UHGV virus genome: UHGV-1885740
Reading direction: 5' to 3' (one strand)
DNA: 14,785 nt
Source of the DNA: a virus
This document shows, piece after piece, positions 7,410 through 14,208 of the stretch. The first letter of the stretch is position 1, and each line of letters begins with the position of its first letter. The notes below the pieces were generated by a model. It worked only from the letters and a program-made list of their open reading frames with translations. It was not told the origin of the DNA and did not search any database. The translations under genes and the position numbers were made by a program.

Positions 7410-7672
7410 ATGAAACGTCTGGATCAGCTTAAATTAGTTCAGTACATGGCCTACAGAATTCTTGAAGTCCAGAAAGGTAGCAAAAAAGAGGTTTGCGAGA
7501 AAGCTTATAAGATCTTCACTCGTAAAAAGATGATTGGATGTTACGCCAGACCAAAAAGGCTGACATCTTGGGGTACCTGGAAGAAGAGATCCGCCTTGAA
7601 GAGCAAGAAGAGATCCGCCGTAGTGAGGCAGATTATCAGGCAGCTTGGGAAAACTGGATGAGCAACAAATAA
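7410..7672 (+). CDS. hypothetical protein with an apparent frame change (frame 0 from 7410; -1 frame from about 7526 to TAA 7670-7672)
   Basis: The ORF-track frame (7410-7661) turns K/R-rich with rare AGA/AGG codons after about 7530, while the -1 frame reads DILGYLEEEIRLEEQEEIRRSEADYQAAWENWMSNK with ordinary codons. A T-AAA-AAG motif sits at 7523-7529, and a 15-bp direct repeat lies at 7581-7595 and 7606-7620. Alternatively two genes, the second starting at ATG 7538. Confidence 0.5.
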
Positions 7673-7691
7673 TACAACAAGGTGCACGGTC

Positions 7692-7717
7692 AGGGGCTTA
7701 AAGCCCCTTTCTTTTTG
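7692..7717 (+). terminator. intrinsic terminator closing the rightward gene module
   Basis: Stem AGGGGC/GCCCCT with loop TTAA followed by TTCTTTTTG. Confidence 0.8.
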
Positions 7718-8322
7718 TCTCCTCTTTTCCTACCACAAATGGCCCCGCCTGGCAAATGGAATAATCAACAAGCCAGCAATTAACCCCACTGTACAAACAT
7801 ACATATAAAATAACTATTGCATAATTTTTCATTGTGTGGTAGCAGGGCCATTTTTACACGTTTTTCCTTCCAAAATTGCACGTAATGCAGCATTTGCACA
7901 AAATTTAACCTGATGCATATCTTCAATAGCTTGTCAACAACTAAAAATTCTTATAAGTCATACACTTACATAACTACAAAAGCGTTTTCTACGTGAAAAA
8001 TCGAGTATAACTATAGCCGCCAGATCTCAGAATTTACGTACGCTCGCCATTCTATAGCCTGCTAAGCATTTATTCCAACCATAGAATAACGGAATAGTCA
8101 ATACCTGCATAAAATAATTATTCGTGTAAACTGCATAACATAAATCGGCCCAAGTGTCAACATTTTTCGTAAACAGTCTGGAATTGTCACGTTAGGTTAC
8201 CATAAGCAGAGAAATCTTTAGTCGTCTAATGTTTACTGTACGTTACTATACTAACTGGAATCATTAGATGACTAATAGAAAGATAAGAAATAATTAACAA
8301 TACAATTATTCTATCTGTAACA

Positions 8323-8593
8323 ATAAGGCAACTATGCAAACGAATGGCATGGCGCGACGGAGTCGCGACATAATATAAAAGCAGTAACCATCACCCCCGT
8401 GATAGTTTGTCTGCAATCTATTAATCAGATCATAGTTGCCTTGTATTCAGTTAATCATGACATAACAAGCAAGGCAACTATAGATCTGCTAATAGTTGCC
8501 CTGCTTTTATATTATGTCATGCTAATTATAATCAGTGCGATTATTGTCATGTATAATTATTGTCATGCAAACGAATGGCATGGCTTATCATTT
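8323..8593. repeat. nested inverted/direct repeat element (about 270 bp)
   Basis: AAGGCAACTAT at 8325-8335 and 8471-8481, with inverted copies at 8432-8442 and 8492-8501; 18-bp direct repeat TGCAAACGAATGGCATGG at 8335-8352 and 8566-8583; 18-bp perfect inverted repeat 8367-8384 / 8501-8518; palindrome CGCGAC-GGA-GTCGCG around 8354-8368. Confidence 0.8.
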
Positions 8594-8610
8594 TTGAGTA
8601 AATAATCTAT

Positions 8611-8716
8611 ACGTTAACAGTAAGCTATGTAAACTATTGGGAATGTAAACAGTAAAGGTCATGAACAGTAAGCGAGCGAATAGTAATAGCGTGAATAGTG
8701 ACAGCGTAAACAGTCA
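8611..8716 (+). repeat. tandem iteron-like array (about 7 units, 15-16 bp period, core GTAAACAGT / GAAYAGT)
   Basis: Cores at 8614, 8629, 8645, 8661, 8677, 8692 and 8706; further isolated copies in both orientations at about 8169, 8843, 8989 and 9719. Confidence 0.75.
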
Positions 8717-9298
8717 TGCATGTCAATTATGTTCAGTGTGTTTAATGTGCTTAAAGTGTCATATTATGTCAGACAAGTTTTTCTCCTCTTTGTCAAGTGC
8801 TGCATGAAAAATTTACAAGCTTGTATGGTAGCATTTTTGCGGCCCTGTTTACATTCAGTGTTGTATGTATAATCCTTGTTGTGTGGGCGTTTAGACGTCT
8901 GGACGGTCAGAAGTCTGCAGGTCAATATCTAATCTATTGGCTGCTAACTATATCCCCCCACAAATAATAAGAAATATAATTGTTATGTGCGTAAACAGTA
9001 ACCTATGTTATCAATCCCTGTATGTATCGCCAGTGGTGCGCATAATGGGTATTATGTTAAATTGCCCGTAATGATAAAGATTCTCACAATGATAGGTATT
9101 CTCATTCACCCTCACAAAATAGATTGCAAATGTTGTGCCACTGTGTGAACGGCCTCACCTATTAATTTGCCTCACTGCCTCGATATTTGAGAATTATTAT
9201 AAGAATGAGAAGTATTCCCATTCCGTCCGCCTGGCAGCACTCCAGTCGCTACCGCTCATGACAGGGCAGAACTGGGCCCATTCAGATATTTCTGACTG

Positions 9299-9567
9299 AC
9301 TCTTCAGGTCTGTGTGGGAAAAGACAACCTCTCCGGCGGGACAGGGGGATATCTGAGGAGAAATTGCAGGTCAATTAAAAAATTTACGTGGTGTATGAAG
9401 CGATCTTCAGGCAAGGTATGTATTATGGGATGAAACCCTCTTCAGGCAATGATATTTGTGGGTGTGATATTTGCTGGAAAGCCAGATATGACGGGACTCC
9501 CGGCGGGGCAGGGGTAGTACAGACAGGGAAAATATGGGGATGTAGTTGGGTAAATTGATCAGGCAGG
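9299..9567 (+). repeat. cluster of CTCTTCAGG-family motifs plus a GC-rich direct repeat CCGGCGGG(R)CAGGGG
   Basis: CTCTTCAGG at 9300-9308 and 9438-9446 (also 9850-9858 and 10500-10508); GATCTTCAGG 9402-9411; GATCAGGCAGG 9557-9567; CTCCGGCGGGACAGGGGG 9331-9348 against CTCCCGGCGGGGCAGGGG 9497-9514. Confidence 0.7.
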
Positions 9568-10210
9568 TAGAGTATGGAATATGTTACAGGTATGTTAAAT
9601 AGGGAGGCTGAATATCTGTAGGATTTGTGTGTAAAATCAAAGACTTAAGTGGTGTTGCGGTATTTTCTATAAATAATTCAAGTTTAATAGGTAATATTTG
9701 TCTCTATTCGCTTTGTGTGGTAAACAGATTCAGATGAGATTGGTTTACAAGTGTATACATAATATACAAATTAAAGATACAAGAAACCCCCTCCCCCTTC
9801 GGCTACCATTCACCTTTTCCTCTGACTGGTACTTAAACACTTATTCAGACTCTTCAGGTTATCACCCATATATCATATGGCAGTGACTGGTGTCCTCCGG
9901 CCCCTCTTTCGTCACCCGTCCGCTTCGCCATGCTAATGCCATAGCCAATGGTTCGGTTGTTCACCCTGTTCACTCAGGTGTATCTCCATACCCCTTCAAA
10001 CCGAAGAGAACAGAAAACCCGAATTACTCGGTAAAAGAAAAGAGAAGAACTTAATTTTATCAGGATAGGCAAGAATGTCAAGGCATGACTGCTCACTAAA
10101 CAAGCAAACAGTCATGTGTGGAAGGTAAGTGATTGTGGTGGTGGGAAATTTAGTTGAAAGATGTGTTATAGGTGCGCTTCCAGCACTTTGGCCGGGCAGC
10201 TAATTGTGCG

Positions 10211-10426
10211 TCAGTCCAGCGGTTCATCCTCTACTTCACTGAAATCAATGTTCATGGTCTCTTCCCAACCATCGATCTCAGCACAAGAGTGGAGTTCTTT
10301 AGGGTTTACTCCCAAAGCCTCAGCAACAGAGTCTATATTTAACACCTCTGGCAGGTATGATTCATCGAATTCAAGGTAAATCAGGCCACGAGTGTTGTCA
10401 GCTCCACCAAATATTTCTATCTTCAT
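10211..10426 (-). CDS. hypothetical acidic protein (71 aa)
   Basis: ATG with GAGGAG 5 nt upstream; ORF track; the overlapping plus-strand ORF is S/T-rich antisense. Confidence 0.65.
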   Translation of the reverse strand: MKIEIFGGADNTRGLIYLEFDESYLPEVLNIDSVAEALGVNPKELHSCAEIDGWEETMNIDFSEVEDEPLD

Positions 10427-10880: not shown

Positions 10881-10909
10881 ATATTATCACTGGAGCGGTA
10901 ATGTGTCAA
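10881..10909 (-). promoter_or_regulatory. sigma70-like promoter on the minus strand (TTGACA-17-TAATAT)
   Basis: Reverse complement of 10904-10909 is TTGACA and of 10881-10886 is TAATAT, with a 17-nt spacer; it is the first promoter downstream of the minus-strand terminator at 11066-11097. Confidence 0.65.
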
Positions 10910-11818: not shown

Positions 11819-12124
11819 TTATTCTACAGAGCGTTTGAACAGAATGTCTGCCTCGGACATGTGCTCAACCTCTTCTTCGATTTTAGCTCGACGTTTTTCA
11901 GCCTCATAGCGAATATCGAACTCGGTAGCCACCAAAGATTTGATGAATTTAGGAGAATACAGGTGATCCTGCTTCTCAACGAGAATGATATCCTTAATGG
12001 CATCTTTCAGATCTTTAATCTGAAGTTGGAGTTCCACCAGTTCTTCGATTGTCTTGCGAAGGCGATCACGCTCTGCAGTGTCAGAAGGAAGAGAGGTGAA
12101 CAGTTCAACTTTAGATTTAGCCAT
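11819..12124 (-). CDS. hypothetical charged, probably helical protein (101 aa)
   Basis: ATG with AAGGAG 9 nt upstream; ORF track; heptad-like E/K/L-rich sequence. Confidence 0.75.
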   Translation of the reverse strand: MAKSKVELFTSLPSDTAERDRLRKTIEELVELQLQIKDLKDAIKDIILVEKQDHLYSPKFIKSLVATEFDIRYEAEKRRAKIEEEVEHMSEADILFKRSVE

Positions 12125-14168: not shown

Positions 14169-14208
14169 TATTATTTCACACAGGGTTGGTGTTGTCAACA
14201 CCTGTGTG
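14169..14208 (-). promoter_or_regulatory. sigma70-like promoter (TTGACA-18-ATAATA) embedded in a palindrome (candidate operator)
   Basis: Reverse complement of 14193-14198 is TTGACA and of 14169-14174 is ATAATA; inverted repeat CACACAGG (14177-14184) / CCTGTGTG (14201-14208) with inner TGTTG-T-CAACA overlapping the -35. Confidence 0.6.

What the first reader, a model, noticed from the sequence alone, without database searches (positions are those of the whole stretch)
7720..10160. 2.4-kb non-coding, repeat-dense zone where both gene modules converge
Every credible gene to the left is on the plus strand and every credible gene to the right is on the minus strand, so transcription from both sides runs into this region. 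It has no convincing ORF; the two ORF-track entries inside it start at GTG/TTG, lack a Shine-Dalgarno site and sit within repeats. It is packed with direct and inverted repeats. In a phage this pattern fits an origin of replication, a packaging or terminal-repeat boundary, a junction of artificially joined genome ends, or an injection-stop-like region as described for T5-like phages. The T5 comparison is recalled from the literature and was not verified.
Basis: partly seen in the sequence, partly recalled or inferred. Interest (0 to 1): 0.7.

Follow-up and report, generated by a model that had tools for sequence, protein, structure and literature searches.

The report
Phage genome ends with terminal repeat
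This gene-free, repeat-rich stretch is where the two physical ends of an rV5-like E. coli phage genome were joined by assembly: it holds the phage's 460-bp direct terminal repeat, already reported for close relatives, plus conserved flanking DNA signals whose roles in packaging or replication are still untested.

Summary
Window 7662-10210 carries no gene, lies between convergent modules, and has about 3 times more short repeats than shuffles.

The window is a Vequintavirus (rV5-like myovirus). Phage Gotham's annotated and published 459-bp terminal repeat maps exactly to window 8772-9231. At least eight GenBank records start or end at exactly these two nucleotides. Two papers report 458-459-bp terminal repeats in the genus, and a third reports 514 bp in a sister genus with the same gap layout.

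The origin and T5 injection-stop guesses are not supported.

Anatomy around the repeat:
- Copy-number-variable tandem arrays abut the left boundary, and a 1-2-copy unit abuts the right. T7's own ends show the same kind of layout.
- A ~270-bp quasi-palindrome (8318-8590) is kept in all relatives (DNA fold z = -9.25).
- A near-invariant 264-bp block (9799-10062) lies downstream of the window's best sigma-70 promoter, which fires toward the repeat and has no ORF behind it.

These are most likely cis signals for end cutting, repeat duplication or replication. That part is inferred.

The core finding is already known. The flanking elements are undescribed but modest in interest.

The parts
7662..10210 (.). 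Whole gene-free gap between the convergent plus-strand (left) and minus-strand (right) modules
   Evidence: ORF list and sequence. Relatives' annotation. No ORF in it passes the codon-position or intactness test.
7692..7708 (+). Intrinsic terminator closing the left module (AGGGGCTTAAAGCCCCT followed by a T-run)
   Evidence: Terminator scan. Annotated as a terminator at the equivalent place in Murica and Gotham.
7720..8317 (.). AT-rich (34-39% GC) conserved non-coding spacer, function unknown
   Evidence: Composition. 81-97% column identity across 18 genomes. ORFs here are broken in relatives or show no codon-position bias.
8318..8590 (.). Cruciform-capable quasi-palindrome cluster. It contains 4 copies of ATAGTTGCC as inverted pairs (8327, 8432, 8473, 8492), a perfect 18-nt inverted repeat (8367-8384 / 8501-8518), a perfect 20-nt direct repeat (8334-8353 / 8565-8584) and 2 copies of ATTATTGTCATG.
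   Evidence: Repeat finder. All four window copies of ATAGTTGCC lie here, 0 of 200 shuffles reach 4. ssDNA fold -58.3 kcal/mol against -27.3 +/- 3.35, z = -9.25. Retained in 17/17 distinct relatives with z from -7.6 to -11.2, and the 33-nt insertion in rV5 and LL12 falls in the central loop. Positions 8350-8500 are 95-100% identical across genomes.
8600..8720 (+). Variable-number tandem array of GTAAACAGT-type units (period about 15-17 bp; copy number varies widely between relatives)
   Evidence: TRF hit at 8678-8707. Motif positions 8647/8663/8678/8693/8708. Length and copy-number variation across 18 genomes, with column identity of only 0.15-0.56.
8721..8771 (+). TGTCA-type short-repeat array (period about 10-12 bp; copy number varies between relatives). 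Its last unit, TGTCA|GACA, carries the left terminus.
   Evidence: Sequences between the conserved anchors in 18 genomes. TGTCA positions. The junction TGTCAGACA is invariant in 18/18.
8772..9231 (.). Direct terminal repeat (DTR), 460 bp, present once here because assembly collapsed the two ends. It contains the perfect 12-bp palindrome TACAAGCTTGTA at 8814-8825.
   Evidence: Base-exact alignment to both annotated 459-bp end repeats of Gotham. Records that start or end exactly at these boundaries. Published 459-bp and 458-bp repeats. 92-96% conserved.
9232..9400 (.). Variable right flank of the DTR: 1 or 2 copies of a 33-bp GGCAGCACTCCnGTnG unit, optional hairpin-bearing insertions, and G-rich CTCCGGCGGG motifs
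   Evidence: Indels after 9232, 9247 and 9347, and 0.67-0.84 column identity. Sequences in 18 genomes.
9298..9859 (+). Dispersed direct repeats CTTCAGG(C/T) (9302, 9405, 9440, 9852) and CCGGCGGG (9333, 9500) in a G-rich, strongly GC-skewed conserved segment
   Evidence: Repeat families D3 and D10. Motif census: 4 of 5 and 2 of 2 window copies lie in the gap. GC skew +0.26 to +0.33.
9799..10062 (.). Ultra-conserved non-coding block: 8 variable columns in 264 across 18 genomes, with three invariant runs of 71-75 nt
   Evidence: Variable-column list, against 43 of 216 in the adjacent gene. No Rfam match. RNA fold z = -1.41 and -0.41.
10054..10081 (-). Near-consensus extended -10 sigma-70 promoter (TTGACA-N13-TGaTAAAAT) firing toward the DTR, with predicted start near 10047 and no ORF downstream
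   Evidence: 11/12 match plus TG. It is the only match in the whole window, with 0.01 expected. The hexamers are invariant in 18 genomes.
10009..10031 (-). Small hairpin plus U-run (CCGAGTAATTCGG GTTTTCTGTT) about 16-38 nt after the predicted start; attenuator- or terminator-like
   Evidence: Terminator scan. It lies in an invariant stretch.

Best explanation
The zone is the concatemer-junction or genome-terminus region of a Vequintavirus (rV5-like myovirus) whose virion DNA is linear, with fixed ends and a short exact direct terminal repeat. The confidence given here applies to this core claim.

SHOWN BY HOMOLOGY. Window 8772-9231 is the 460-bp repeat. It is present once here because assembly fused the two ends. 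Virion DNA would start at 8772 (GACAAG...) and end at 9231 (...CCGTCCGCC) after one full genome length. Both end-proximal gene modules are then transcribed outward toward the ends, which looks like 'convergence' in the circularised assembly.

INFERRED, about 0.5. The copy-number-variable short-repeat arrays that abut the boundaries are recognition or positioning sites for the terminase. These are the GTAAACAGT and TGTCA arrays on the left and the GGCAGCACTCC units on the right. They resemble the 13-bp CCTAAAG arrays that flank T7's repeat. Cutting would occur at two small odd palindromes, TGTC-A|GACA and GCC|T-GGC.

SPECULATIVE, about 0.25 each. (a) The invariant ~270-bp quasi-palindrome about 250 bp outside the left boundary extrudes as a hairpin or cruciform that helps duplicate the repeat during concatemer processing (the T7 'hairpin end' idea), or else serves as an origin. 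(b) The strong outward promoter and the invariant block behind it supply transcription through the junction, or a cis site needed for packaging, analogous to T7 phiOR/pacB and the leftward A0 promoter.
For: Identity of the phage: 122 records, 86-97% identical, all Vequintavirus.

Gotham annotates a 459-bp repeat_region at both record ends. Both copies align base for base to window 8772-9231, and the unique flanks continue collinearly.

Dias et al. [quoted passage not shown] Korf et al. 2019 report 458-bp terminal redundancies in EdH4 and HdK5 (PMC6563267).

Records whose first or last base coincides with a boundary: Gotham, YN3 (both carry two copies), bov11CS3, bov25_3, EcoIv14a_Aya, ECP2303, ECP2309 and Pr121LW.

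A sister genus has the same architecture. KPP-1's 514-bp DTR, supported by 2x coverage and a PhageTerm T7-type call (PMC9862379), sits in a 1.8-kb repeat-rich gap between convergent modules.

The hypervariable, indel-rich arrays lie exactly outside both boundaries, while the repeat and the outer flanks are conserved.

T7's real ends show the same layout: a 160-bp repeat abutted by a 13-bp CCTAAAG array, with an outward host promoter A0.

Promoter uniqueness and invariance are.
Against: No reads from this isolate were available, so the termini are transferred from relatives that are 93-97% identical across the repeat.

Some literature disagrees. The rV5 paper calls the genome circularly permuted. 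A PhageTerm run on Nextera XT libraries called the bov vequintaviruses 'circular permutated'. BpE1AUH was inferred to package by headful.

Some depositors may have re-opened their records by homology to earlier ones, so the eight coincident records are not all independent. Pr121LW's accession series looks earlier than Gotham's (my reading of the accession, not a checked date), and Korf 2019 and Dias 2020 come from separate studies.

The roles of the arrays, the palindrome and the promoter are inferred from position, conservation and analogy only. The palindrome arms show no compensatory changes, so a hairpin cannot be told apart from dyad-symmetric protein sites. The boundary mini-palindromes are short (arms of 3-4 bp) and could be chance.
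Confidence: 0.87

Rival explanations
1. The genome is circularly permuted and packaged by headful. On this reading the zone is only a long intergenic region where two transcription units end, perhaps holding a pac site, and the '459-bp repeat' is an assembly or annotation artefact.
For: The rV5 paper states a circularly permuted genome. PhageTerm calls of 'circular permutated' for the bov phages and 'headful' for BpE1AUH. Most deposited records are opened at arbitrary positions.
Against: A headful pac site gives at most one preferred boundary. Here two fixed boundaries 460 bp apart recur to the base in at least eight records, always with the repeat as the terminal element.

Dias et al. report the same start sequence in all virions. 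KPP-1 shows 2x coverage over its repeat.

The bov analysis used tagmentation libraries and also called T4-likes 'fixed'. From my own knowledge, PhageTerm is unreliable on such libraries. The current versions of the bov records nevertheless start at the boundary.
Confidence: 0.07
2. The conserved AT-rich left part, with its four ATAGTTGCC sites in dyad arrangement, and/or the promoter with the downstream AT-rich stretch on the right, is the phage origin of replication. Its position next to the ends would be incidental. This can coexist with the terminal-repeat reading.
For: 34-39% GC. Four clustered iteron-like sites and a strongly foldable palindrome, near-invariant across the genus. A strong promoter followed by AT-rich DNA at 9620-9790 resembles transcription-primed origins of T7 and T4 (established knowledge, not tested here). 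The GC skew changes sign here (rV5 paper).
Against: The skew change coincides with the switch in gene orientation, as the rV5 authors noted. There are no DnaA boxes and no initiator gene adjacent to the gap. The sites are inverted pairs and not a direct iteron array. No replication data exist.
Confidence: 0.2
3. The strong promoter at 10081-10054 expresses a non-coding RNA (or a micro-peptide) from the ultra-conserved block, and that product is the reason for the block's conservation.
For: This is the best sigma-70 match in the window, with 0.01 expected, and it is invariant. The 264-nt downstream block varies about 7 times less than the neighbouring gene (3% against 20% of columns). A hairpin plus U-run lies about 16-38 nt downstream of the predicted start.
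Against: No Rfam family matches. The predicted fold is not better than shuffles, z = -1.41. There is too little variation to test covariation, and IMG/VR holds only one further copy. The small ORFs lack credible ribosome-binding sites and show no codon-position bias.
Confidence: 0.15
4. A T5-like injection-stop region: the untranslated repeats pause DNA entry until early proteins are made.
For: Like the T5 iss region, this is an untranslated, repeat- and palindrome-rich stretch next to a terminal repeat, and it is better conserved than nearby genes. Vequintavirinae share daunorubicin sensitivity with T5-like phages, whereas T7-likes are resistant (PMC13250531). That link is circumstantial only.
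Against: There are no DnaA boxes in the gap even with 1 mismatch allowed, whereas T5-like iss regions carry 8 paired boxes. The repeat is 460 bp and gene-free, not ~10 kb with pre-early genes. Genes near both ends point outward, so no promoter-first 'first-step' gene set lies at either end.
Confidence: 0.04

Closest known systems
Vequintavirus / Vequintavirinae short direct terminal repeats (Gotham 459 bp; EdH4 and HdK5 458 bp; Klebsiella phage KPP-1 514 bp)
   Same: The sequence is homologous: 93-97% identity over the whole repeat, with identical boundaries. The position is the same, in a gene-free gap between convergent modules.
   Different: Nothing differs for the repeat itself. The published notes give only its length. 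The flanking arrays, the palindrome and the invariant promoter block are not mentioned in the papers read here.
Bacteriophage T7/T3 concatemer junction (160-bp terminal repeat flanked by short-repeat arrays; phiOR, phiOL and A0 promoters; proposed hairpin intermediate)
   Same: An exact short terminal repeat with tandem short-repeat arrays directly abutting it. An outward-firing promoter lies near the repeat. An inverted repeat lies nearby that could form a hairpin. KPP-1 was classed as T7-type by PhageTerm.
   Different: There is no sequence similarity. The phage is a ~137-kb myovirus that uses host sigma-70 promoters, not a phage RNA polymerase. The genes on both sides point toward the junction, whereas T7's genes are all co-directional. 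The arrays have periods of about 11 and 15-17 bp, against 13 bp in T7. For the T7 hairpin work, only the title of the paper was seen.
Bacteriophage T5 injection-stop (iss) repeat regions
   Same: An untranslated, highly conserved nest of direct repeats, inverted repeats and palindromes at the edge of a terminal repeat.
   Different: No DnaA boxes. The repeat is 460 bp without genes, against ~10 kb with pre-early genes. There is no evidence of two-step injection.

Membership tests
Short exact direct-terminal-repeat genome ends (T7-type, as reported for Vequintavirinae) | The same sequence is present at both ends of the virion DNA | tested here: met
   Met in relatives. Gotham and YN3 carry the segment at both record ends, and both Gotham copies align base for base to window 8772-9231. 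For this isolate only the single collapsed copy can be seen.
Short exact direct-terminal-repeat genome ends (T7-type, as reported for Vequintavirinae) | Fixed, sequence-specific termini rather than permuted ends | tested here: met
   At least eight records begin or end at exactly 8772 or 9231. [quoted passage not shown] Caveat: there are conflicting PhageTerm calls, one of them from tagmentation libraries.
Short exact direct-terminal-repeat genome ends (T7-type, as reported for Vequintavirinae) | About twofold read coverage over the repeat, and read-start pile-ups at its boundaries | not testable with these tools
   No sequencing reads are available. This was reported for KPP-1 in the sister genus.
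T7-like concatemer-junction architecture | Tandem arrays of short repeats directly flanking the terminal repeat | tested here: met
   Window: GTAAACAGT and TGTCA arrays at 8600-8771 and GGCAGCACTCC units from 9232, all variable in copy number. T7: a 13-bp CCTAAAG array at nt 175-341, and looser repeats before the right-hand copy.
T7-like concatemer-junction architecture | Phage-RNA-polymerase promoter (phiOR) and pacB site required in cis for packaging | not testable with these tools
   Only a host-type sigma-70 promoter is present, and rV5-like phages use host-type promoters throughout. A cis requirement needs genetics.
T5 injection-stop signal | Set of about 8 paired DnaA boxes within the inverted repeats | tested here: not met
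   TTATCCACA with up to 1 mismatch gives 8 hits in the window and none between 7662 and 10210. The definition is from Davison 2020.
T5 injection-stop signal | Lies at the inner edge of a ~10-kb terminal repeat that carries pre-early genes (A1, A2, dmp) | tested here: not met
   The repeat is 460 bp with no credible ORF. Homologues of A1 and A2 were not searched for.
Headful pac site / circular permutation | At most one preferred cut site, with the other ends distributed | tested here: not met
   Two fixed boundaries 460 bp apart recur across records.
Iteron-type replication origin | Array of initiator-binding repeats beside an AT-rich unwinding element, usually next to the initiator gene | tested here: inconclusive
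   Four ATAGTTGCC sites lie in AT-rich DNA. However, they are arranged as inverted pairs, there is no adjacent initiator gene, and there are no DnaA boxes.
Known non-coding RNA families (Rfam 15) and tRNA/tmRNA | Covariance-model or ARAGORN match | tested here: not met
   No hit in the gap at E up to 1. No tRNA or tmRNA.

The most novel reading that the evidence does not exclude
The near-invariant quasi-palindrome (8318-8590) and the invariant promoter-driven block (9799-10081) bracket the terminal repeat. They may be the cis-acting machinery that lets a large myovirus duplicate and cut an exact short terminal repeat: a hairpin- or cruciform-primed copy of the repeat, plus host-RNA-polymerase transcription through the junction. 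If so, this would be a T7-like solution rebuilt with host sigma-70 transcription. It could be tested genetically in the BASEL vequintaviruses.
Probability: 0.25. Interest if true: 0.6.

Novelty: already known. Interest (0 to 1): 0.3.

Why it matters
In practical terms, this tells annotators that vequintavirus genomes have fixed ends with a ~460-bp repeat at window 8772-9231. Records could then be opened consistently, and the 'non-coding box' of the rV5 genome paper is explained. It also helps resolve conflicting 'circularly permuted' statements in the literature.

[quoted passage not shown] This family is abundant, grows on E. coli K-12 and is present in the BASEL collection. It offers sharply delimited, ultra-conserved candidate cis elements (arrays, palindrome, promoter block) that could be mutated to test models of repeat duplication and end recognition.

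Tried and rejected
- Rfam scan of the whole window at E up to 1: nothing in the gap.
- ARAGORN: no tRNA or tmRNA.
- RNA folding of the invariant block on both strands: z = -1.41 and -0.41, so no support for a structured RNA.
- Coding test of all 27 ORFs of at least 30 aa in the gap: none behaves like a gene. The mini-ORFs annotated in some relatives (Murica gp129, APCEc02_065/066, HMD-6, SophiaRose, Phage 203, Gotham F10B_0172) differ in position and frame between records, so I treat them as spurious.
- DnaA-box search: none in the gap.
- Search for more divergent copies of the invariant block, to allow a covariation test: blastn in distant mode finds only the 122 vequintavirus records, and IMG/VR holds one contig.
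- Compensatory-change test on the DNA palindrome: uninformative, because the arms hardly vary.
- Resemblance of 7714-7755 to both repeat boundaries (TTTGTCTCCTCTTT; CCGCCTGGCA): rejected as chance, since about 2.7 exact 10-mer pairs are expected in 2.4 kb.
- Pfam and PHROG scans of the flanking genes: only 'unknown function', plus one transcriptional-regulator family at 11819-12124.
- Literature search for papers on the other records that start at the boundaries: only the bov paper was found, and its PhageTerm result contradicts its own revised records.
Full report
WHAT THE WINDOW IS. The region and its flanks match 122 phage records at 86-97% identity. All are Vequintavirus (rV5-like, ~137-kb E. 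coli myoviruses), and the closest are APCEc02, JeffSchatz and nomo. In annotated relatives, small plus-strand genes of unknown function end on the left and small minus-strand genes of unknown function end on the right. About 2.5 kb between them is left empty or filled with inconsistent mini-ORFs. The original rV5 genome paper drew this stretch as an unexplained 'non-coding' box, noted a skew change there, and did not find the bidirectional terminator it expected.

CHECK OF THE OBSERVATION. The gap is 7662-10210. I aligned the window with 17 relatives and tested every ORF of at least 30 aa in the gap. None shows third-position bias, and most are interrupted in relatives. The neighbouring gene 10211-10426 gives 7/6/30 substitutions by codon position and is intact in 17/17. 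Repeat density is well above chance: 74 direct and 53 inverted 9-mer pairs, against about 20 +/- 6 and 22 +/- 6 in shuffles, with 0 of 200 shuffles reaching either. It also exceeds the equal-sized coding controls. The excess sits mostly in 7720-8771.

WHAT IT IS. Several records break inside the region at recurring positions. Phage Gotham annotates a 459-bp repeat_region at both ends of its record. Aligning both copies to the window places the repeat at 8772 (GACAAGTTTTT...) to 9231 (...CCGTCCGCC), which is 460 bp here, with the unique flanks continuing collinearly on each side. A search with just this segment shows records whose first or last base is exactly one of these two boundaries: Gotham and YN3 (two copies each), bov11CS3, bov25_3, EcoIv14a_Aya and ECP2303, plus ECP2309 and Pr121LW.

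The literature agrees. [quoted passage not shown] EdH4 and HdK5 have '458 bp' terminal redundancies (PMC6563267). In the sister genus Mydovirus, KPP-1 has a 514-bp repeat with doubled coverage and a T7-type PhageTerm call (PMC9862379). I fetched that KPP-1 region. The repeat again lies in a ~1.8-kb repeat-rich gap exactly where plus-strand and minus-strand modules converge. The architecture is therefore a subfamily trait.

The 'convergence' is a consequence of circularising a linear genome. In the virion, both end-proximal modules are transcribed outward toward the ends.

CONFLICTING EVIDENCE. The rV5 paper calls the genome circularly permuted. A PhageTerm run on Nextera XT libraries called the bov vequintaviruses 'circular permutated', while also calling T4-likes 'fixed'. 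BpE1AUH was inferred to be headful. I give these little weight for three reasons. First, a headful pac site cannot produce two fixed boundaries 460 bp apart. Second, from my own knowledge, tagmentation libraries hide end signals. Third, the current versions of the bov records start exactly at the boundary. Not all eight coincident records need be independent, because some depositors may have re-opened their records by homology. Korf 2019 and Dias 2020 are separate studies, and Pr121LW's accession series looks earlier than Gotham's, though I did not check its date.

ANATOMY AROUND THE REPEAT. The conservation profile is sharply structured.
- 7700-8600 is conserved, and 8350-8500 is almost invariant.
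- 8600-8771 is hypervariable, with 0.15-0.56 identity and many indels.
- The repeat is 92-96% conserved.
- 9232-9400 is variable again.
- 9400-10150 is conserved, and 9799-10062 has only 8 variable columns in 264. The adjacent gene has 43 in 216.

The hypervariable left flank consists of two nested copy-number-variable arrays. The outer array has GTAAACAGT-type units with a period of about 15-17 bp. The inner array has TGTCA-type units with a period of about 10-12 bp. The last inner unit, TGTCA|GACA, holds the terminus and is invariant in 18/18 genomes. The right flank starts with one or two copies of a 33-bp GGCAGCACTCCnGTnG unit. Both boundaries sit at the centre of small odd palindromes, TGTC-A|GACA and GCC|T-GGC. 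rV5 keeps the arms of the second with a changed centre. This comes from direct reading and is statistically weak.

THE T7 COMPARISON, TESTED ON T7 ITSELF. I fetched T7's ends. Its 160-bp repeat is directly abutted by a 13-bp-period CCTAAAG array at nt 175-341, and looser CCTAAGG/CCTAAAG repeats precede the right-hand copy. The record also annotates a leftward (outward) E. coli promoter, A0, at nt 224. The layout 'exact short repeat, flanking short-repeat arrays, outward promoter' is therefore shared. Sequence, array period, gene orientation and promoter type differ.

THE TWO ULTRA-CONSERVED BLOCKS.
(i) Block 8318-8590 contains all four window copies of ATAGTTGCC as inverted pairs (0 of 200 shuffles reach 4). 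It also holds a perfect 18-nt inverted repeat and a perfect 20-nt direct repeat. As single-stranded DNA it folds to -58.3 kcal/mol, against -27.3 +/- 3.35 for shuffles, z = -9.25. All 17 distinct relatives keep this fold, with z between -7.6 and -11.2. The 33-nt insertion in rV5 and LL12 falls in the central loop. There are no compensatory changes, so a hairpin or cruciform cannot be separated from dyad-symmetric protein sites.
(ii) On the right, the single best sigma-70 promoter of the whole window (TTGACA-N13-TGaTAAAAT, minus strand, 10081-10054) has 0.01 expected by chance. It fires toward the repeat into the invariant block, and no credible ORF follows it. The block has no Rfam match and no significant RNA fold.

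HOW IT MOST LIKELY WORKS.
- Shown by homology: the fixed ends and the 460-bp repeat.
- Inferred, about 0.5: terminase recognises the arrays and cuts at the two boundary palindromes in concatemers.
- Speculative, about 0.25 each: the palindrome acts as a hairpin or cruciform intermediate that allows the repeat to be copied so that each daughter genome gets two copies. This is the idea raised for T7 by Chung, Nardone and Hinkle 1990, of which I saw only the title. The alternative is that it acts as an origin. The promoter and invariant block may provide transcription through the junction or a pacB-like cis site.

RIVALS.
- Headful packaging with permutation (0.07) is contradicted by the two fixed boundaries.
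- An origin role for the palindrome cluster (0.2) is not excluded. It lacks DnaA boxes and an adjacent initiator gene.
- An ncRNA from the strong promoter (0.15) lacks any structural or family support.
- A T5-like injection stop (0.04) fails the DnaA-box and long gene-bearing-repeat criteria. The only link is the shared daunorubicin sensitivity of Vequintavirinae and T5-likes.

NOVELTY AND SCORE. The core identity, the short direct terminal repeat at the genome ends of a vequintavirus, is already published and annotated for close relatives, so the finding is 'already known'. What is not described in the papers I read is the fine structure: variable arrays abutting both boundaries, an invariant ~270-bp palindrome, and an invariant promoter-driven block. 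These are good, cheaply testable candidates for the poorly understood mechanism of exact terminal-repeat formation, but their roles remain inference. Interest is 0.3.

Noticed in passing
window 7600-10300 versus GenBank MG0656xx records: Eighteen to nineteen records named 'Campylobacter phage' (host C. jejuni) are 91-95% identical to this E. coli vequintavirus region. The host label looks doubtful, possibly through contamination or mislabelling.
   Followed up: no
window 7410-7661 (+): The last gene of the left module is labelled 'DNA translocase FtsK' in APCEc02, nomo and pangalan. It has no Pfam hit. Only residues 1-41 of the window protein match PHROG 11701 (positions 1-41 of an 87-position profile), so its C-terminal half differs from the family.
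   Followed up: partly
just left of window ~7700; L002 4220-4639, L008 52-471: Many relatives carry an extra 420-nt gene between the left module and the gap (rV5 ORF164; Murica gp128, noted there as 'contains Rel homology domain'). The window lacks it, so this is a presence/absence polymorphism at the edge of the terminal region.
   Followed up: no
insertions relative to window after 8526 and after ~9247 (L002, L008, L009, L010, L021 and others): Subsets of relatives carry small GC-rich hairpin-bearing insertions, for example ACCCGAAGGGGTGACCAAAGGTCACCTGG and ...CTAGCTGAAAGCTAG...CCCTTCGGG.... These may be miniature mobile palindromes or terminators.
   Followed up: no
window 10881-10909 (-) and 14170-14198 (-): Two further strong extended -10 sigma-70 promoters (TTGACA-N14-TGnTAWAAT with 1 mismatch) point the same way as the one at 10081. 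With it they form a series of leftward promoters through the right-hand module.
   Followed up: no
window 11819-12124 (-): This 101-aa protein matches PHROG 639 (transcriptional regulator). It is conserved at 42-58% identity in other Vequintavirinae genera infecting Klebsiella, Cronobacter, Salmonella, Erwinia and Serratia, which makes it a useful synteny marker near the genome end.
   Followed up: partly
window 10084-10091 / 10109-10116: An 8-bp inverted repeat (CATGACTG ... CAGTCATG, 17-nt spacer) lies directly upstream of the -35 hexamer of the strong promoter. It could be an operator, or a T-less terminator for the right-hand module (read).
   Followed up: no
window 7714-7755: TTTGTCTCCTCTTT resembles the start of the terminal repeat (8778-8791), and CCGCCTGGCA equals the right junction (9228-9237). 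I judged this chance-level, since about 2.7 exact 10-mer pairs are expected in 2.4 kb (and direct reading).
   Followed up: partly
literature on MT884009-MT884011 (bov phages): The published table gives 135,960-135,961 bp and 'circular permutated'. The current record versions (.2) are 135,883 bp and start exactly at the terminal-repeat boundary. The 77-bp difference may be a trimmed assembler overlap, which is my guess.
   Followed up: no
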